A stretch of DNA of 64,000 nt, taken from an uncultured Pelagibacteraceae bacterium (lineage in GTDB: Bacteria; Pseudomonadota; Alphaproteobacteria; Pelagibacterales; Pelagibacteraceae). Below the pieces are notes generated by a model. That model was given only the letters and a program-made list of their open reading frames with translations. It searched no databases and was not told where the DNA came from. Both the position numbers and the translations under genes were made by a program. The stretch covers positions 31,924 to 95,923 of the forward strand of contig CACBRY010000001.1 of NCBI GenBank assembly GCA_902541825.1, read 5' to 3'. Shown one piece after another: positions 45,567 through 52,631 of the stretch. Position 1 is the first letter of the stretch. The number at the start of each line of letters is the position of its first letter.

Positions 45567-46706
45567 ATGAAATTTGAAGCCTCAAAGGCTGCGGCCTTAA
45601 ATAGATTAAATAATTTTGTAGAAAAAAATCTTTCTGAATATTCCAAACTAAGAAATTTTGATTTTGGTCCGGAAAAGAGAACAAATATATCTGGTTTATC
45701 TCCATATATTACTCATGGAGTTATCAACGAGAAAGAAGTTATTGAAAAATCACTTAGCAAGTTTTCTTTTTCAAAAAATGAAAAATTCATTCAAGAAGTT
45801 TTGTGGCGAACATATTGGAAGGGTTGGTTAGAATTACGACCAAACGTTTGGACAGATTACTTAGTTGAGTTAAATAAAATTCGAGAAGAATATAAAGATA
45901 ACCAAAATTACAAAAATGCAATAGATGGAAAAACCAATATTGAATGTTTTAATTTTTGGGTAACAGAGCTTAAAGAAAATAACTATTTACATAATCATAC
46001 TAGAATGTGGTTTGCTAGTATTTGGATTTTTACATTAGAATTACCCTGGCAATTAGGAGCAGAATTTTTTATGCAACATCTTTACGATGGTGACTCTGCA
46101 TCTAATACTCTTGGTTGGAGATGGGTAGCTGGAATTCAAACACAAGGAAAACACTATTTAGCGAGCGAGTGGAATATTAAAAAATTCACTAATAATAGAT
46201 TTAATAGTATTAAATTAAACGAAAACGCTCCTCCAAAAGTTTCTGAAAAAACTTACTCAATAGTTAAACAAGATTTTAGCAATAAAAATATAGATGATGA
46301 AAATCTTTTTATTTTTGAAAATAGTTTATCATTTGAAACCACAGATTTTCAAAATCATAAATTTAAAAAAATTTACATAATTTCAAATAAAAATGAAAAT
46401 AGATCTATCAAACTAAGTGAAAAAGTTATTAAATTTAAAGCTCTTTTAGTAGATGATCAAAAACAAAGATTAGAAAATAATTCTATCACTTGTGAAGTGG
46501 TAGACATAAGTGAGATTAAAAATATAAACGAAAAAATTATAGCGTTATATCCAACAGTCGGTGAAAACCTGGATTATTTAAATTTAAATAATTTAAAAAT
46601 AGATTTTTTATATAGAAAACTCGATCAATATTCATGGCAGTATTGTAATAAAGGTTTTTTTAATTTTAAAAATTATATTCCTAAAATAATTACAACTTTT
46701 AATTAA
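45567..46706 (+). CDS. Inverted-domain (NewPHL-type) DNA photolyase
   Basis: FAD domain at the N-terminus (SGLSPY, FIQEVLWR, YLHNHTRMWFAS, DGDSASN, WRWVAG) with no preceding antenna domain. Confidence 0.8.
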   Translation: MKFEASKAAALNRLNNFVEKNLSEYSKLRNFDFGPEKRTNISGLSPYITHGVINEKEVIEKSLSKFSFSKNEKFIQEVLWRTYWKGWLELRPNVWTDYLVELNKIREEYKDNQNYKNAIDGKTNIECFNFWVTELKENNYLHNHTRMWFASIWIFTLELPWQLGAEFFMQHLYDGDSASNTLGWRWVAGIQTQGKHYLASEWNIKKFTNNRFNSIKLNENAPPKVSEKTYSIVKQDFSNKNIDDENLFIFENSLSFETTDFQNHKFKKIYIISNKNENRSIKLSEKVIKFKALLVDDQKQRLENNSITCEVVDISEIKNINEKIIALYPTVGENLDYLNLNNLKIDFLYRKLDQYSWQYCNKGFFNFKNYIPKIITTFN

Positions 46707-46924
46707 AACCACCTAAACATCCCGATGATTCCCGCTGTAGCATAAAAGAATTGCAAAAATAATATTCCTCTGTGACCACCCCTATAGGCCCAAATTCCAA
46801 TTAAAATTGCGGAAATAAGTAACAAACAAAAACCAAAAAATTCTATGCCAATATTCATAGCTACAAATAATGAATATAGTATTGCAGTTATAACTCCTGC
46901 CCATTCAAAAATTTTATTATTCAT
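46703..46924 (-). CDS. Small 3-TM membrane protein
   Basis: 73-aa hydrophobic ORF, last gene of the minus-strand run. Confidence 0.7.
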   Translation of the reverse strand: MNNKIFEWAGVITAILYSLFVAMNIGIEFFGFCLLLISAILIGIWAYRGGHRGILFLQFFYATAGIIGMFRWF

Positions 46925-46929
46925 ACTTT

Positions 46930-47067
46930 TTATTCATTTTCCAGCTTGAATTTTTTTCTATTATAAATTTTTTTTTTATTTTTTACTATTTTATTTCTGA
47001 GCATTGCTGAGCTTAATAATTTAGCCATTGGATTTTTCTTCTTTAATTTTTTTATTTTTTTGCTCAT
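46930..47067 (-). CDS. Unannotated 45-aa basic protein, ArfA-like
   Basis: Hand translation MSKKIKKLKKKNPMAKLLSSAMLRNKIVKNKKKIYNRKKFKLENE; fills the gap between two genes. Confidence 0.6.
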   Translation of the reverse strand: MSKKIKKLKKKNPMAKLLSSAMLRNKIVKNKKKIYNRKKFKLENE

Positions 47068-47095
47068 ATGAGTTTTTAAAATTAGTATACAAAAT

Positions 47096-47785
47096 TTATC
47101 TTGCCAATTTTATGAAAATATCACCCATGCCAGCATCTAAATTTTCTAAAGGTGTATTGTTTCTTAAATTACAATACCTACCAGTAACTTGGTGGCTTTT
47201 AACAAAATCTATTTCATCTTTTTCACAACTTTTTCCATTATGCAACAAACCTATAACTATTCGATCATCAAGACTATAAACCTCTGATTTATTAATTTTT
47301 TTACCATCACAAAAATAATCTTTATTTACTCTGTTTGGAAAATCCTGTTTATCGCAAGGGTTTTTGATAGTTAAAACATAAAATTCCTTCAAGCCATCTT
47401 TAAATTCATATTTCATTTTTTGAGTTTCAGAGTACTTCATAAGATCACATGAACATGGAACACAACATCTATAATAATTTCCACAAATTTTTTTTTTAGT
47501 TTTAGTTTCTTCAATAAATAAAAATTCTGAGTCGCTATTTGGATCAATCAAAGATCCAGAAACCGCGCAGTATAATTTATTAAATTCAATAAAATCTTTA
47601 TAAGTGATTTTTTTATCTATAATATATTTAAAAAACTTTGGTCCTGCCGCATTTCTATTTTTATCAGGGAATATTCTTGACCAATCAGTAATAAGCTCCT
47701 TGTGATAGTTTTTTTCTTCAGCGAATGATTTAAGCTGAAATAATATTAAAAATATAATCAAAAAAAGATTTAAAAATTTTTTCAT
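47096..47785 (-). CDS. Exported Cys-rich hypothetical protein (10 Cys)
   Basis: Signal peptide, RCCVPCSCD motif, ATGA overlap with the CRTAC1-like gene. Confidence 0.8.
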   Translation of the reverse strand: MKKFLNLFLIIFLILFQLKSFAEEKNYHKELITDWSRIFPDKNRNAAGPKFFKYIIDKKITYKDFIEFNKLYCAVSGSLIDPNSDSEFLFIEETKTKKKICGNYYRCCVPCSCDLMKYSETQKMKYEFKDGLKEFYVLTIKNPCDKQDFPNRVNKDYFCDGKKINKSEVYSLDDRIVIGLLHNGKSCEKDEIDFVKSHQVTGRYCNLRNNTPLENLDAGMGDIFIKLAR

Positions 47786-49212
47786 TTTTGTTTTACAGTA
47801 ATTGTTTGATTTAACTCAGTTACATTGAATAATTTTTTTGTTCCATTGGTCCATTTAATCTCTACTTTAAAATTTTTTTCGTTTTTTCTAATTCCATAAT
47901 GTGCCACAGGCTCCATTTGGCATAAGTAACCAGATCCTGCATCAATAGTTTTGGAATGCTTTCTTTTATTTGTTATTAATGTTACCGTAGCTCCTCTCGC
48001 CGGGGCACCATATTTACTTAATGGTTTAATTCTTAGGTATTTATTTCCTTTGTCAACTTTTGCTTTATAGAAAGTTAATGGTTGTTCTTTACTTTCACCA
48101 CGAGCAACTAACAATTCTAAAACTCCGTCATTATCAATATCTGCGACAGCTGCCCCAGTTCCATACCCATTAACTTCGAGACCAACTTGAAAATTTATCT
48201 GTTCAAATTTTCCATCATCGTTAATACGAAATAATTTATTTGGTTCTGCTATATTGTTCATAAAAACTTCATCAAAACCATCGTTATCAAAATCTGCAGA
48301 AATAATTGTTCTAATTCTAGAAGGTTTATCAAAATCTTTATTTCCTATGTCTTTAAATTCGTTTTTTTCCAAAACCCAGGCTCTATGATATCCAAGCCAA
48401 TTACCACTCAGAATATCTAATCTGCCTCGATAATATATGTCTGATAAAGCTGTACCTCTCCCATTTTGGATTGCATCATCTACTCTATAATCAAATGCTA
48501 CATCTTTAAAATTTCCATTATTATTTTTATAAAGATAATTTGCTCCCCTCTCATTTGCTGCAAAAATATCTGCTCTATCTGACAAGATATGTCCTGATAC
48601 CACTGCTCTTCCACCAGTGATATTATCAAGATTTAAACTCTGAGCCTTATCTTTAATCAATTCATCTTCAATCTCATAAAATCTGGTTGGGCCTCCGTAA
48701 TTTGCTACATAGACTCCATATTCACCATCTCCCTTTCTATCTACACAAACTACAGATCTTCCTGCTGTTAAATTTAGGTTTTCTTTATTTTTTTCTAATT
48801 CGAATAAATCAAAATAATTATTATCTTCTATATCTAATAATCTATCTGAATATTTTTTATCCCCACTATATGTATCTGTATTTAGAAAGTAAATTTCTTC
48901 AAAGCCATCTTTATCGATATCACACGCAGCAACTCCTATAGTTCTTTTTAAAGTATCTGAAAAAATTTTTTGCTGATTTAGATTCTTTAATTTTCCATCC
49001 TGAAAAGATAAAGCTAAGTTAGGATAACCAAATCCTGTTACTAAAAACTCATAATTTCCATCCATATTAAAATCTGTTACTGAGATACCATAGCTGAGCC
49101 TTTTTTCATTATTTTCAATAATTTTTGATAGATCCTCAAAAAATTCTGCACGAGTATTATTTGTAAAAATTACAAAAAAAATTAAAATCAAATATCGAGT
49201 AAGATTTTTCAT
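47782..49212 (-). CDS. CRTAC1 family protein (FG-GAP/VCBS beta-propeller plus ASPIC/UnbV domain)
   Basis: Repeated DxDxDG loops (DFNMDG, DIDKDG, DFDNDG, DIDNDG) and IDAGSGYLCQMEPVAHYG; signal peptide from ATG 49212. Confidence 0.88.
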   Translation of the reverse strand: MKNLTRYLILIFFVIFTNNTRAEFFEDLSKIIENNEKRLSYGISVTDFNMDGNYEFLVTGFGYPNLALSFQDGKLKNLNQQKIFSDTLKRTIGVAACDIDKDGFEEIYFLNTDTYSGDKKYSDRLLDIEDNNYFDLFELEKNKENLNLTAGRSVVCVDRKGDGEYGVYVANYGGPTRFYEIEDELIKDKAQSLNLDNITGGRAVVSGHILSDRADIFAANERGANYLYKNNNGNFKDVAFDYRVDDAIQNGRGTALSDIYYRGRLDILSGNWLGYHRAWVLEKNEFKDIGNKDFDKPSRIRTIISADFDNDGFDEVFMNNIAEPNKLFRINDDGKFEQINFQVGLEVNGYGTGAAVADIDNDGVLELLVARGESKEQPLTFYKAKVDKGNKYLRIKPLSKYGAPARGATVTLITNKRKHSKTIDAGSGYLCQMEPVAHYGIRKNEKNFKVEIKWTNGTKKLFNVTELNQTITVKQK

Positions 49213-49337
49213 TTTTTTGATGAACATTTTTTTGAGCAATATTTAACCTTTTCCCAATTGAGTCTCCATTTCCTTCTCCATTTAAATGGTCTTTGACATA
49301 TTGGACAAACCTTAATTGGTAAATTTTCTTTTTTCAC
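49209..49337 (-). CDS. Unannotated DUF2256-type zinc-ribbon protein (42 aa)
   Basis: Hand translation MKKENLPIKVCPICQRPFKWRRKWRLNWEKVKYCSKKCSSKK; TAGTG and ATGA overlaps with its neighbours. Confidence 0.88.
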   Translation of the reverse strand: MKKENLPIKVCPICQRPFKWRRKWRLNWEKVKYCSKKCSSKK

Positions 49338-50827
49338 TAAACTGTGTTTTCTTTAATGAATTTATCTGCAGCCGACAAAATTAATTTTTTTCTATCCATT
49401 TTCATTTTATCAAATATTCTTACCATCATTGAAAGTCTTGGATTTTTTAAAAAAAACTTTCTATTACGATCTATAAATCTCCAATAAAGTCCGTCCATCG
49501 TGTTACACCATTCTCCTTTTTTAAAATCCATCATTTTCATAAAATAACTTGATCCACAAATGTATGGTTTGGTTGCAAAAATTCCCCCGTCACTAAATAA
49601 CCCCATACCATAAACATTGGGTACCATTACCCAATCTGAGGAGTCGACAAACATCTCCATGAACCATTTGTAAACAATATTAGGTTTTATTTCACAAAGG
49701 TTCATTATGTTTGATAAAATCATTAATCTTTCAATGTGATGAGACCATCCAAAATTTAATGCGTTTTTAATTGCGTAATCTAATGGAGGTAAACCTGTCG
49801 TTCCATCATACCATGACTTTTTCATTTTACGATTTTGTTTGAAAAAATTTCCAGTTTCCATTTCATTTGAGTAACTTTGATAAATTCCTCTCATAAATTC
49901 TCTCCATCCTATAACCTGACGAACATAACCTTCTAGAGAATTTAATCTAATTTTTTTACTCTTATGAAAATCTAAAACTTTTTTGATAATAAATTCAGGT
50001 GTGATTAAACCTAGGTTGATATAAGGACTTAAAGCGCTGTGAAATAAGATATTATCTTTTTGATCCACTGCGTCCTCATAATCACCAAATAAATTAGATT
50101 TTTCTTTAATGAAAAAATTCAATAATTTGACTACATCATTATACTCTGTAGCAAACCAAAAATTTTTGGTTGTTCCTGGATGATCTTTAAATAGTTTTTC
50201 AATAATAGGTTTTAATTTTTTAGTATGATTTGTTTCATTAATTTTAGGAAACTTTGGAATAGAAATATTTTTTGGTAACTTATTTCTGTTATCTTCATCA
50301 AAACTCCATTTGCCTCCAATAGGATTTCCATCAGAACCCATTAATATTCCAGATTTCTTTCTCACTTCCTTATAAAAAGTTGCCATGAAAGGTTTTTTTG
50401 ATTTAGATAGATATTGTTTAAATTCATCTCTTGAATTCAAAAACATTGGGGTTTGAATAATATTCCATTTGATCTTTTCTTTTTTTACGAATTGATTTAT
50501 TTTTTTCTCAAAAAATTTATCCTCGACTTCAAAACTTGAAATCTCTTTTATTTTTTTTGAATTAATTATTTTTTTTAATTTTTTTAAATAGTCGTCTTTA
50601 AATTCTTTATCCTCAATTTTAGAATATTCTAATTTAAACTTATCTTTTCTGAGGTTTTCCGCATGTGAACGCATCGATGACAAAAAGAGAAGTATCTTAT
50701 TTTTATGATGTTTTTCATAAGTACATAATTGATAATCCTCTGCCATAAAAATTAGGTGGTCTTTTTTGAAGCAATCCAAGTATTTTGATGGAAATAATTG
50801 ATTACCCAGTATAAAAAATAACTTCAT
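49337..50827 (-). CDS. Bacterial (6-4) photolyase/cryptochrome (PhrB/CryB class), lacking 4Fe-4S ligands
   Basis: LGNQL, GGKWSFDEDNR, FGDYEDA, RQVIGWREF, HHIERLM, WVMVPNVYGM, TKPY. Confidence 0.9.
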   Translation of the reverse strand: MKLFFILGNQLFPSKYLDCFKKDHLIFMAEDYQLCTYEKHHKNKILLFLSSMRSHAENLRKDKFKLEYSKIEDKEFKDDYLKKLKKIINSKKIKEISSFEVEDKFFEKKINQFVKKEKIKWNIIQTPMFLNSRDEFKQYLSKSKKPFMATFYKEVRKKSGILMGSDGNPIGGKWSFDEDNRNKLPKNISIPKFPKINETNHTKKLKPIIEKLFKDHPGTTKNFWFATEYNDVVKLLNFFIKEKSNLFGDYEDAVDQKDNILFHSALSPYINLGLITPEFIIKKVLDFHKSKKIRLNSLEGYVRQVIGWREFMRGIYQSYSNEMETGNFFKQNRKMKKSWYDGTTGLPPLDYAIKNALNFGWSHHIERLMILSNIMNLCEIKPNIVYKWFMEMFVDSSDWVMVPNVYGMGLFSDGGIFATKPYICGSSYFMKMMDFKKGEWCNTMDGLYWRFIDRNRKFFLKNPRLSMMVRIFDKMKMDRKKLILSAADKFIKENTV

Positions 50828-50854: not shown

Positions 50855-51565
50855 ATGTCAGAAAAATATCTTATTCTTGGTGCGACAGGTTCAATCGGAT
50901 CTAGTTTAGCTGAACAATTAGTAAATTCAGGAAATTCAGTTCATTTAGTTGGCAGAAATGAAAATGAAACAAAAAATATTTCTGAGAAATTAGGTTGTAG
51001 TTTTACAATAGCCGATGTTTTGCAGGATGGATTTGTGGAAAAGGTTAAAAATGATATTTCTGATGTAAAAGGAATTGCCTACTGTGTAGGTTCAATTGAT
51101 TTAAAACCTTTGAGAATGGTCAATGAGCAGGATTTTAATAAGTGTATGAAATTAAATTTATACTCAGCAGTGGATGTTATAAAAGGCTACCAGGATAGTT
51201 TAAAAAAAAATAAAGGTTCAGTAGTTTTATTTTCCACAGTTGCAGCTCAAAGAGGTTTTACAAATCACGCTATAATTGCCTCTACTAAGGCTGCTGTAGA
51301 AGGTTTAACTGTTTCTTTAGCAGCGGAATTTGCTCCTAATATTAGAGTGAACTGTATTGCACCTAGTTTGACTAACTCGAAAATTGCTGAGCCAATGTTA
51401 AAAAATAAAGCATTAGCAGATGGTATAGCTAAAGCTCATCCTTTAAAAAGATTAGGTGAAGGTAAGGACTCTGCCTCTCTTGCAAAATTTCTTATCACTG
51501 ACGACAGTTCTTGGGTTACAGGTCAAATCATTGCTGTTGATGGTGGTAGATCAAAACTTTCTTAA
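50855..51565 (+). CDS. Short-chain dehydrogenase/reductase, atypical active site
   Basis: GATGSIG, IRVNCIAP, TGQIIAVDGG; HAIIASTK in place of YxxxK. Confidence 0.88.
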   Translation: MSEKYLILGATGSIGSSLAEQLVNSGNSVHLVGRNENETKNISEKLGCSFTIADVLQDGFVEKVKNDISDVKGIAYCVGSIDLKPLRMVNEQDFNKCMKLNLYSAVDVIKGYQDSLKKNKGSVVLFSTVAAQRGFTNHAIIASTKAAVEGLTVSLAAEFAPNIRVNCIAPSLTNSKIAEPMLKNKALADGIAKAHPLKRLGEGKDSASLAKFLITDDSSWVTGQIIAVDGGRSKLS

Positions 51566-51566
51566 A

Positions 51567-52631
51567 GTGAAAAGAACGCTTGTTACAATTTTTTTATTTA
51601 CACTTTTTATAAATTATTCATTTGCTGATAATTTAAAATTTAAGAAGATTGTGAATTTAAAAGGTCCATGGGGATCTACTTTTATTAATGATACAGAATT
51701 ATTAATTACCGAAAAAAGTGGAGAAATTAAGTTAATAGATCTAAATACTAAAAAAATTTCTTCATTAAACCACAATCTTAATTATTTAGAGCATGGACAG
51801 GGTGGTTTATTAGATATTCTTTATAAAGATGATTTTGTATATATTTCATATACCGAAAATAGAGGAAATTGGAAAACTAGTACCTCAATAGCAAGATCGA
51901 AATTTAATGAAAAAGATTTAATCTTTAAAAATATTTTCCAAGCAAATCCACCTATTGACTCTGGATATCATTTTGGATCAAGGTTGGCGATCAAAGATGG
52001 TTATCTTTTCGCGTCTGCTGGTGAAAGAGGTCAAGGTATGATTGCACAAGATCCTACAAAGCATCCTGGTAGTATCATAAGAATAAATATTGATGGAAGT
52101 ATCCCAAAAGATAATCCAAAATTTCAGGGTAAATCAGATTGGTTACCAGAAATTTATCAAATAGGTATTAGAAATCCTCAAGGTCTAACTTTATCACCAT
52201 TTGATGAAAAAATTTATATGAGTAATCATGGAGCGAGAGGTGGGGATTGGTTCGGTGAAGCAAAAAAAGGTGAAAATTATGGATGGAAAATTTTAGGTTG
52301 GGGAGGGACAAACTATTCAGGCATTCCTATCGGTCCAAAATGGAAACCAGGTTTTACAAAAGCGATACAATATTGGGTGCCGTCCATAGCAACAAGTGCA
52401 ATCACAATTTATAAAGGAAAAGAGTTTAGTGAATGGGATGGACATGCTTTAATTACTTCACTTAAAGACAAATCTTTGAGAAAATTAATATTTGACGACT
52501 TATCTAATGTGAAAGAGGAAATCATATTTAAAAATAAAATTGGAAGAATAAGAGATATACAAGTACATCCTGATAACGGAAAAGTTTACTTTTTAGGAGA
52601 AGATGCTCTCTGGCTGATGGAGAAAATCTAA
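51567..52631 (+). CDS. PQQ-dependent aldose sugar dehydrogenase family beta-propeller
   Basis: GQGGLLD, HFGSR, GIRNPQG, NYGW, GRIRD; GTG at 51567 gives a signal peptide. Confidence 0.87.
   Translation: MKRTLVTIFLFTLFINYSFADNLKFKKIVNLKGPWGSTFINDTELLITEKSGEIKLIDLNTKKISSLNHNLNYLEHGQGGLLDILYKDDFVYISYTENRGNWKTSTSIARSKFNEKDLIFKNIFQANPPIDSGYHFGSRLAIKDGYLFASAGERGQGMIAQDPTKHPGSIIRINIDGSIPKDNPKFQGKSDWLPEIYQIGIRNPQGLTLSPFDEKIYMSNHGARGGDWFGEAKKGENYGWKILGWGGTNYSGIPIGPKWKPGFTKAIQYWVPSIATSAITIYKGKEFSEWDGHALITSLKDKSLRKLIFDDLSNVKEEIIFKNKIGRIRDIQVHPDNGKVYFLGEDALWLMEKI

What the first reader, a model, noticed from the sequence alone, without database searches (positions are those of the whole stretch)
46703..50827. 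Coupled operon linking a (6-4) photolyase to DUF2256, a CRTAC1 propeller, an exported 10-Cys protein and an ArfA-like factor
Seen: six minus-strand ORFs. The first four are joined by overlapping stop/start codons (TAGTG at 49335-49339, ATGA at 49209-49212, ATGA at 47782-47785), and two of the six are missing from the ORF track. An inverted-domain photolyase converges on the 3' end and an atypical SDR diverges from the 5' end. Known: photolyases repair UV lesions, and DUF2256 genes often sit beside PhrB/CryB. Inference: a light/UV-stress module combining DNA repair, ribosome rescue and an uncharacterised two-protein envelope component. I know of no description of this combination.
Basis: partly seen in the sequence, partly recalled or inferred. 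Interest (0 to 1): 0.8.

Follow-up and report, generated by a model that had tools for sequence, protein, structure and literature searches.

The report
Photolyase-flanked variable slot carrying CRTAC1/Cys-rich pair
The six tightly packed genes are real, but they are a strain-specific mix in a variable slot between two DNA-photolyase genes of a SAR11 bacterium. The only new unit is an exported pair, a CRTAC1-like propeller and a cysteine-rich protein of an undescribed family, that always travels together and sits beside photolyase genes more often than chance predicts.

Summary
All six minus-strand ORFs and the three overlapping junctions are confirmed. The array is not a conserved six-gene module. 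In Pelagibacter the backbone is NewPHL photolyase >< DUF2256-(6-4) photolyase <> SDR. The interval between the two photolyases is a variable slot with different cargo in different strains.

The 45-aa ArfA-like ORF and the 73-aa membrane ORF occur without the CRTAC1/Cys pair, and the pair mostly occurs without them.

The CRTAC1-like propeller and the 10-Cys protein are a genuine two-gene unit:
- adjacent in every locus examined (about 125);
- both absent from 10 complete genomes;
- fused in one 859-aa protein from elsewhere.

The Cys protein has no Pfam family. Its AlphaFold2 model is confident (pLDDT 94.6) but has no PDB match (best Z 2.5). Relatives occur in a GC-rich marine bacterium, in giant-virus-like contigs and in other non-SAR11 sequences.

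The pair lies next to three different photolyase-family genes in three separate genomic contexts out of about nine. This suggests a loose sunlight link, but hot-spot hitchhiking is not excluded.

First-stage readers of this scan noted the pair in other SAR11 windows; none of those notes had been followed up.

The parts
49337..50827 (-). Prokaryotic (6-4)-type photolyase (DPRP + FAD_binding_7), the subtype without an Fe-S cluster
   Evidence: Pfam DPRP E=4e-65 and FAD_binding_7 E=2e-8. Full-length match to Agrobacterium PhrB 4DJA, E=2.7e-84, and to CryB 3ZXS. In that alignment PhrB Cys350 aligns to Pro, Cys438 and Cys441 lie in a 10-residue loop that is deleted here, and Cys454 aligns to Asn. 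Fe-S-less members such as PromaPL are known (PMC9178010).
49209..49337 (-). DUF2256 four-Cys zinc-ribbon micro-protein (42 aa)
   Evidence: Pfam DUF2256 E=4.1e-18, above the cut-off. Its GTG start shares one base with the photolyase stop (TAGTG). It is present downstream of the photolyase in every Pelagibacter locus checked, with or without the pair.
47782..49212 (-). Exported CRTAC1-like FG-GAP beta-propeller with an UnbV_ASPIC domain (476 aa)
   Evidence: Pfam FG-GAP_3 E=1.5e-24 and UnbV_ASPIC E=2e-12. Match to PDB 9etn_A 'Cartilage acidic protein 1', E=2.4e-97, over residues 33-460. Signal-peptide-like N-terminus and DxDxDG-type loops were read from the sequence. ATGA overlap with DUF2256.
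47096..47785 (-). Exported 10-Cys protein (229 aa) of an undescribed family; obligate partner of the propeller
   Evidence: No Pfam or NCBIfam hit. 347 representative clusters at E<=1e-3. Invariant residues: R44, N45, C73, S76, G77, G102, C107, C108, P110, C111, D114, P143, C144, C159, R208, G219, M220, G221, F224. AF2 pLDDT 94.6. No PDB, BFVD or named Atlas match. Adjacent to the propeller in all loci. Fused to a propeller in P0216.
46930..47067 (-). 45-aa Lys-rich ORF, weakly ArfA-like; independent cargo of the slot
   Evidence: 28 intact copies, with variable sites by codon position 12/8/22. 173 metagenomic clusters, two of them named ArfA by JGI. hhalign against E. coli ArfA gives P=2.2e-4 and 40% identity over ArfA residues 11-42. 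The Smith-Waterman score of 57 was reached by 0 of 2000 shuffles. No Pfam ArfA hit. Present without the pair in G007.
46703..46924 (-). 73-aa hydrophobic (membrane) ORF; independent cargo
   Evidence: Only a sub-threshold PnuC N-terminal match, E=0.011. Conserved at 86-100% identity in relatives. Present without the pair in G007 and absent from the 79-81% clade.
45567..46706 (+). Convergent NewPHL/SPL-type photolyase with inverted domain order; one border of the slot
   Evidence: FAD_binding_7 lies at residues 74-198. Residues 1-197 align to residues about 200-400 of class I photolyases. The topology is as described for NewPHL (PMC7736829). Conserved in all Pelagibacter loci examined.
50855..51565 (+). 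Divergent SDR; the conserved neighbour beyond the photolyase end of the slot
   Evidence: adh_short_C2 E=3.9e-44. It lies 27 bp from the photolyase start. SDR<>photolyase is conserved in all Pelagibacter loci that reach that far. The catalytic Tyr is replaced (read from the sequence).

Best explanation
The array is a strain-level mosaic in a variable slot of the Pelagibacter chromosome. The slot is bounded by two conserved light-repair genes. On one side lies an Fe-S-less prokaryotic (6-4) photolyase with its DUF2256 zinc-ribbon companion. On the other side lies a convergent NewPHL-type photolyase.

Two independent cargoes sit in the slot in this strain:
(a) A mobile two-gene unit for exported proteins. 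It consists of a Ca2+-binding CRTAC1-like beta-propeller and a 10-Cys protein of an undescribed family. The two are gained, lost and moved together and therefore probably act together outside the cytoplasm.
(b) A small ArfA-like basic ORF plus a 73-aa membrane ORF, which are unrelated to (a).

Because the genes abut or overlap and no terminator is visible, the pair is probably read through from the photolyase promoter. That step is inferred, not shown.

The pair lies beside three different photolyase-family genes in separate lineages. The most likely reason is selection for co-inheritance or co-expression in sunlit-surface ecotypes. One example would be a periplasmic or surface role in coping with light-driven oxidative damage. 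The biochemical activity is unknown. I favour a disulfide- or metal-bearing Cys protein working with the propeller.
For: Shown:
- Gene identities.
- The slot backbone is conserved in pair-less genomes, where the slot holds other cargo: GATase, LrgA/B-like, MarC-like, methyltransferase-like and others.
- Among 80 close loci, insertions occur at three points of the array. The 45-aa ORF is present in about 25. The 73-aa ORF is absent from the 79-81% clade.
- G007 has both small ORFs without the pair.
- The pair is adjacent in 20/20, 80/80 and 20/20 SAR11 loci and in all five contigs of a 53-58% GC bacterium that include sequence upstream of the Cys gene, where the propeller gene is called short or cut in most.
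- The propeller is absent from 10 complete Cys-negative genomes.
- P0216 (859 aa) fuses the Cys domain with FG-GAP/UnbV_ASPIC.

Photolyase link:
- In genus g8 a divergent photolyase-family gene lies directly upstream of the Cys gene in 9 loci, with a 4-bp overlap where read (L045, L047).
- Its ortholog occurs in 10 of 15 pair-positive and 0 of 32 pair-negative genomes.
- In a second Pelagibacter clade an accessory photolyase lies 1 kb away in 3 of 9 loci.
- With about 3 photolyase-family genes per 1.3 Mb, uniform placement gives roughly 1.5% per context. Three of about nine contexts then has P of about 3e-4 (my rough estimate).
- In genus g5 an exported MsrB lies directly upstream of the Cys gene in one locus, L041.
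Against: - All three photolyase-adjacent contexts are themselves variable slots. Clustering of flexible genes could therefore inflate the association.
- Related genomes are not independent. The g8 association may be a single event.
- About six of nine contexts have no photolyase within 7-10 kb. These include all eight g5 loci, the 57-60% Pelagibacter clade and the GC-rich bacterium.
- The accessory photolyase of the second clade also occurs in pair-less genomes elsewhere in the chromosome.
- Giant-virus-like contigs carry the Cys protein without a called FG-GAP/UnbV_ASPIC gene in the 5-7 kb flanks shown.
- There are no expression data.
- Overlapping junctions are common in this genome.
Confidence: 0.6

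Rival explanations
1. Hot-spot hitchhiking. The pair has nothing to do with light. It is ordinary flexible-genome cargo, for example a cell-surface or envelope-variation function as is typical of SAR11 variable regions. It lies near photolyase genes only because both accumulate at the same few insertion-tolerant sites.
For: - Both the Pelagibacter slot and the g8 slot (rpoD-like | ... | 282-aa gene) are empty or hold unrelated cargo in other strains.
- The pair has no photolyase neighbour in most contexts.
- Overlapping junctions are common in this genome.
Against: - Three different photolyase classes are involved, in three contexts.
- In g8 the photolyase-family gene is never found without the pair (0 of 32).
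- That gene stays next to the Cys gene down to 74% protein identity.
Confidence: 0.3
2. All six genes form one light/UV-stress module that couples DNA photorepair, ribosome rescue and an envelope component.
For: - The packing is tight, with no terminator-like site between the genes.
- The 45-aa ORF shows weak but non-random similarity to the ArfA core.
Against: - The six-gene order occurs only in the closest strains (>=96% clade plus one other locus).
- The small ORFs and the pair assort independently.
- Insertions of 0.35-3.2 kb split the array at three junctions in relatives.
- There is no Pfam ArfA match.
Confidence: 0.07

Closest known systems
Bacterial (6-4) photolyases PhrB (Agrobacterium, PDB 4DJA) and CryB (Rhodobacter, 3ZXS), and the Fe-S-less PromaPL of Prochlorococcus, with the neighbouring DUF2256 gene
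   Same: Full-length homology at E=2.7e-84, with DPRP and FAD domains. DUF2256 lies downstream. Earlier follow-ups in this scan reported the same pairing in many bacteria (a lead, not my evidence).
   Different: Three of the four Fe-S cysteines are missing and the fourth is displaced, as reported for PromaPL (PMC9178010). Here the operon is extended by unrelated exported cargo.
Vertebrate CRTAC1 (cartilage acidic protein 1, PDB 9ETN)
   Same: FG-GAP propeller plus UnbV_ASPIC domain, E=2.4e-97 over about 430 residues. Secreted, with Ca2+-binding-type loops.
   Different: The protein ends after the ASPIC domain. Pfam found no EGF-like C-terminal domain. It is paired with, and elsewhere fused to, a Cys-rich protein that the 9ETN match does not cover. 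Its function in bacteria is unknown.
NewPHL / SPL inverted-topology photolyases (Emmerich et al. 2020, PMC7736829; Xu et al. 2021, PMC8476157)
   Same: The catalytic FAD domain is N-terminal and is followed by a C-terminal extension of about 180 aa.
   Different: Not characterised in SAR11. Here it overlaps the 3' end of the array convergently.
E. coli ArfA (alternative ribosome-rescue factor A)
   Same: 40% identity over 30 columns covering ArfA residues 11-42 (LL..P..R..V.KNKK..Y.RK), hhalign P=2.2e-4. Two homologues are named ArfA by JGI.
   Different: It has 45 aa and a normal stop. The GKGS loop is shortened. There is no Pfam ArfA hit. It belongs to an alphaproteobacterium, and from my own knowledge ArfA has been described only in beta- and gammaproteobacteria.
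Variable (flexible) genomic islets of SAR11 and other marine bacteria
   Same: Conserved flanks, with strain-specific presence or absence of unrelated cargo at the same site.
   Different: This slot is bounded by two photolyase genes. One cargo, the pair, recurs beside photolyase-family genes at other sites.

Membership tests
Prokaryotic (6-4) photolyase / FeS-BCP | DPRP-type N-terminal domain plus FAD-binding domain, with full-length similarity to PhrB/CryB | tested here: met
   (E=2.7e-84 to 4DJA, residues 3-491).
Prokaryotic (6-4) photolyase / FeS-BCP | Four cysteines ligating the [4Fe-4S] cluster (PhrB C350, C438, C441, C454; numbering from my knowledge, counted on the alignment) | tested here: not met
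   In the alignment C350 aligns to Pro, the loop with C438 and C441 is deleted, and C454 aligns to Asn. This files the protein with the Fe-S-less subtype (PromaPL-like, PMC9178010).
Prokaryotic (6-4) photolyase / FeS-BCP | Light-dependent repair of (6-4) photoproducts | not testable with these tools
   Needs an enzyme assay.
DUF2256 (PF10013) | Pfam match above the gathering score and a four-Cys zinc ribbon | tested here: met
   (65.7 bits against a cut-off of 25). CxxC...CxxxC read from the sequence.
CRTAC1 family | FG-GAP propeller followed by an UnbV_ASPIC domain, homologous to CRTAC1 | tested here: met
   (9etn_A, E=2.4e-97).
CRTAC1 family | C-terminal EGF-like Ca2+-binding domain of the vertebrate protein | tested here: not met
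   No EGF family in the Pfam scan. The match ends at residue 484 of the 586-residue 9ETN chain.
NewPHL / SPL photolyases | N-terminal catalytic FAD domain and no N-terminal alpha/beta antenna domain | tested here: met
   Definition from PMC7736829.
ArfA (PF03889) | Match to the family profile | tested here: not met
   No hit at E<=10 for two variants. No PF03889 match in the genome at E<=1. No PDB ArfA chain at E<=10.
ArfA (PF03889) | Similarity to the RF2-binding / mRNA-channel core of E. coli ArfA | tested here: inconclusive
   hhalign probability 45%, P=2.2e-4. Smith-Waterman z of about 6 against shuffles. The GKGS loop is not kept.
ArfA (PF03889) | Rescue of non-stop ribosomes through RF2, and expression from a truncated non-stop mRNA | not testable with these tools
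   The ORF has a normal stop. Activity needs an assay.
YHS/TRASH metal-binding domains (considered for the Cys protein) | Match to the family profile | tested here: inconclusive
   None of the 24 family members matches any shared Pfam family at E<=5. The by-eye C-x-V-S-G ... YY-x-CC-x-x-C resemblance remains untested by structure.
PnuC / NMN transporter (considered for the 73-aa ORF) | Profile match above the cut-off and a multi-helix transporter length | tested here: not met
   16.2 bits against a cut-off of 27.3. Only 73 aa against a 175-position profile.

The most novel reading that the evidence does not exclude
The CRTAC1-like propeller and the 10-Cys protein form a previously undescribed extracytoplasmic two-protein system with a new fold. 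It is shared by SAR11, another marine bacterium, giant-virus-like contigs and other non-SAR11 sequences. It functions in the cellular response to sunlight, for example in the repair or avoidance of photo-oxidative damage to the envelope. This would explain its repeated genetic coupling to photolyase and cryptochrome genes.
Probability: 0.25. Interest if true: 0.8.

Novelty: new variant of a known kind. Interest (0 to 1): 0.55.

Why it matters
SAR11 is the most abundant bacterial group of the sunlit ocean, and about 40% of the genomes sampled carry this pair.

The function of CRTAC1 is poorly understood even in vertebrates. An obligate bacterial partner, fused to a propeller in one non-SAR11 protein, gives a handle on what this ancient propeller does.

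The Cys-rich family is absent from Pfam and has no detectable structural relative. It is also found on giant-virus-like contigs, so it is a good target for structure and function work.

The recurrent photolyase adjacency gives a concrete, testable hypothesis: light or oxidative stress.

The finding also corrects an over-reading. Tight packing in streamlined genomes does not make an operon a functional module.

Tried and rejected
- Complex prediction of the propeller (residues 25-476) with the Cys protein (residues 24-229) gave no verdict: score 0.00 against a mark of 0.32 (after failed attempts). It is not evidence either way.
Co-transcription and light response could therefore not be examined, and read laying was not used.
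- Fold searches with the Cys-protein model:
  - Foldseek against PDB and BFVD gave nothing at E<=1e-3.
  - VIA-align against 48,161 chains gave a best Z of 2.5.
  - The Atlas returned only unnamed clusters.
- A Pfam scan of all 24 family members found no shared family, so the YHS/TRASH idea has no profile support.
- The promoter/terminator scan was uninformative: 19 promoter-like sites against 31 expected, and no terminator between the genes.
- The search for related loci with the broad alignment A1 failed for lack of a conserved stretch. The narrower alignment A2 returned only close Pelagibacteraceae among its best 80.
- The order-wide PF03441 search listed only part of its matches, so it could not be used for genome-wide distance statistics.
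- The 73-aa ORF after the pair in the GC-rich bacterium is not homologous to the window's 73-aa ORF.
- BLASTP with composition adjustment did not recover the ArfA alignment.
- Literature searches for SAR11 with CRTAC1, and for Pelagibacter photolyase with hypervariable region, found nothing relevant.
Full report
**Observation**

The window comes from a 31% GC, 873-kb, 74%-complete Pelagibacteraceae assembly. Six minus-strand ORFs occupy 46703-50827.
- TAGTG between the photolyase and DUF2256, and ATGA between DUF2256 and the propeller;
- ATGA between the propeller and the Cys protein;
- spacers of 28 bp and 5 bp before the two small ORFs.

The array ends with a 4-base overlap against the convergent gene 45567-46706. 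It starts 27 bp from a divergent SDR gene. Overlaps are common in this genome: 18 of 54 co-directional junctions in the window overlap. Packing alone therefore says little about function.

**Gene identities**

*Photolyase (49337-50827).* This is a DPRP/FAD_binding_7 protein. It is homologous over its full length to the (6-4) photolyase PhrB (4DJA, E=2.7e-84) and to CryB. In that alignment three of the four PhrB Fe-S cysteines are substituted or deleted, and the fourth position is Asn. The protein therefore belongs to the Fe-S-less subtype known from Prochlorococcus PromaPL (PMC9178010).

*DUF2256 (49209-49337).* A clear Pfam match.

*Propeller (47782-49212).* It has FG-GAP repeats and an UnbV_ASPIC domain. 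It matches the solved structure of cartilage acidic protein 1 (9ETN) at E=2.4e-97.

*Cys protein (47096-47785).* It has a signal peptide and ten cysteines, and no Pfam or NCBIfam family.

*45-aa ORF (46930-47067).* See the separate section below.

*73-aa ORF (46703-46924).* It has only a sub-threshold PnuC-like match.

*Convergent gene (45567-46706).* Its photolyase FAD domain is N-terminal. This is the NewPHL/SPL topology (PMC7736829).

**Is it a conserved module?**

No. I mapped the window's proteins onto three sets of loci: 20 Pelagibacterales loci with 9-kb flanks, 80 Pelagibacteraceae loci and 20 further loci.

In the clade whose Cys protein is at least 72% identical, the order photolyase...DUF2256-propeller-Cys is kept. 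Relatives nevertheless carry insertions at three points:
- 0.35-3.2 kb between the photolyase and DUF2256;
- about 560 bp between DUF2256 and the propeller;
- about 750-800 bp after the Cys gene.

The 45-aa ORF is present in only about 25 of the 80 loci. The 73-aa ORF is missing from the 79-81% clade, where the Cys gene directly abuts NewPHL.

Five complete genomes that lack the pair keep the same backbone, ArgG...NewPHL >< DUF2256-photolyase <> SDR. Their slot holds unrelated cargo: a glutamine amidotransferase and, judged by eye from their N-terminal sequences, LrgA/B-like, MarC-like, homocysteine-methyltransferase-like, OsmC-like, GNAT-like and DsbA-like genes. One of them, G007, has the 45-aa and 73-aa ORFs but no pair.

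The array is therefore a mosaic in a variable slot. The two small ORFs assort independently of the pair.

**The pair is a unit**

- The Cys protein was found in 122 of 301 Pelagibacterales genomes, in 3 of 11 genera.
- In every locus examined, the propeller gene is next to the Cys gene. The two are co-directional in the window's genus and convergent in genera g5 and g8.
- Ten Cys-negative genomes that are at least 99% complete have no propeller gene.
- In contigs of a 53-58% GC marine bacterium, a propeller gene directly abuts the Cys homologue.
- One 859-aa protein (P0216) has the Cys domain at residues 34-228 and FG-GAP/UnbV_ASPIC at 528-746. It lies on 2.8-kb single-gene contigs of unknown, non-SAR11 origin.

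Adjacency, co-loss and fusion together make a functional partnership likely. Direct binding was not shown.

**The Cys-rich family**

- A search of 1.8 billion representatives found 347 clusters at E<=1e-3.
- A 24-sequence alignment shows the conserved motifs NRN, YCxVSGS, CCxPCxCD, DPC and GGMGDIF, with six invariant cysteines.
- The family was not found in 400 other Pseudomonadota genomes from 211 genera.
- Other members lie on giant-virus-like contigs. These carry a fused topoisomerase II, DUF5754, an mRNA-capping enzyme, a RING protein, XPG, UvdE and a viral-type rhodopsin. No FG-GAP/UnbV_ASPIC gene was called in the flanks shown.
- Further fusions join the domain to DUF2237, rhodanese or GNAT domains.
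- In a maximum-likelihood tree the three bacterial sequences form one supported clade (100/98), separate from a clade of six other sequences that includes the propeller fusion.
- The AlphaFold2 model is confident (pLDDT 94.6). It has no match in PDB by Foldseek or VIA-align (best Z 2.5), none in BFVD, and only unnamed clusters in the Atlas.

I treat this as an undescribed family with no recognisable fold relative. It remains possible that a relative was simply missed.

**Link to photolyases**

SAR11 genomes carry about three photolyase-family genes each. I counted roughly nine distinct genomic contexts for the pair. Three of them include a photolyase-family gene.

1. *The window's slot.* It is flanked by the (6-4) photolyase and NewPHL.

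2. *Genus g8, in another family of the order.* A divergent PF00875+PF03441 protein lies directly upstream of the Cys gene in 9 loci, with a 4-bp overlap where read. Its orthologue occurs in 10 of 15 pair-positive and 0 of 32 pair-negative genomes. The site (rpoD-like | ... | 282-aa gene) is itself variable: it is empty, holds other cargo, holds the pair alone, or holds the photolyase gene plus the pair.

3. *A 62-67% Pelagibacter clade.* An accessory photolyase lies 1 kb from the propeller in 3 of 9 loci. That gene type also occurs elsewhere in pair-less genomes.

The other contexts have no photolyase within 7-10 kb. In genus g5 the flanks are a thioesterase and, in one locus, an exported MsrB directly upstream of the Cys gene. 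In the 57-60% clade the flanks look like DnaK/DnaJ genes, judged by eye.

Under uniform placement, three of nine contexts is unlikely (roughly 3e-4 by my estimate). However, the genomes are related and flexible genes cluster. The excess may therefore reflect shared hot spots rather than shared function.

**The 45-aa ORF**

It is intact in 28 copies, with most variation at third codon positions. It has 173 metagenomic clusters, two of which JGI names ArfA. It has no Pfam ArfA hit and no PDB hit.

A profile of the family aligns to residues 11-42 of E. coli ArfA with P=2.2e-4 and 40% identity. A Smith-Waterman score of 57 was reached by 0 of 2000 shuffles.

It is a real small gene and a plausible distant ArfA relative. 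Membership is unproven, and it is not tied to the pair.

**Verdict**

- The six-gene 'light/UV-stress module' is not a conserved unit.
- The photolyase-DUF2256 core and NewPHL are known kinds.
- The new content is the propeller/Cys-protein pair, its undescribed family, and its repeated but non-obligatory coupling to photolyase-family genes.
- The complex prediction gave no verdict.
- First-stage readers of this scan noted the same pair in other SAR11 windows, including the g8 arrangement. None of those notes had been followed up.

Noticed in passing
window 49337-50827: The (6-4)-type photolyase lacks the PhrB Fe-S cluster ligands: C350 aligns to Pro, the loop with C438 and C441 is deleted, and C454 aligns to Asn. 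This iron-free variant fits an oligotroph and resembles Prochlorococcus PromaPL.
   Followed up: partly
window 50855-51565: The SDR that diverges 27 bp from the photolyase is conserved in that position in all Pelagibacter loci that reach that far. By inspection it has a TGxxGxxG-type glycine motif and no catalytic Tyr (IASTK where YxxxK is expected).
   Followed up: no
L045:7835-9277 (G018) and eight other g8 loci: A divergent cryptochrome/photolyase-family protein (480 aa; FAD_binding_7 only E=3.6e-41; below every NCBIfam subfamily cut-off). Its stop overlaps the start of the exported Cys protein. It was found only in pair-bearing genomes of that genus.
   Followed up: partly
L161-L166 (metagenome contigs): Giant-virus-like contigs encode homologues of the Cys-rich protein. 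They lie a few kb from a viral-type rhodopsin (L161, L162), a UvdE endonuclease (L163, L164) or a DUF2237 gene (L165). DUF2237 is also fused to this domain in P0125 and P0261.
   Followed up: partly
L041:10034-10483 (genus g5): An MsrB (SelR) gene with a signal-peptide-like N-terminus lies 3 bp upstream of the Cys-protein gene. This hints at periplasmic repair of oxidised proteins.
   Followed up: no
L137:9684-10013, L138:8888-9217, L139:9070-9399: A conserved 109-aa ORF with no Pfam family recurs next to the photolyase or DUF2256 in pair-less Pelagibacter genomes.
   Followed up: no
window 46703-46924: The 73-aa hydrophobic ORF ends in a 4-base overlap with the convergent NewPHL gene. It has a weak match to the first third of PnuC (E=0.011). 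It is kept at 86-100% identity across strains.
   Followed up: no
window 51456-52631: The longest ORF of the glucose/sorbosone dehydrogenase gene overlaps the SDR gene by about 110 bp. The true start is probably further downstream, just before the signal-peptide-like segment.
   Followed up: no
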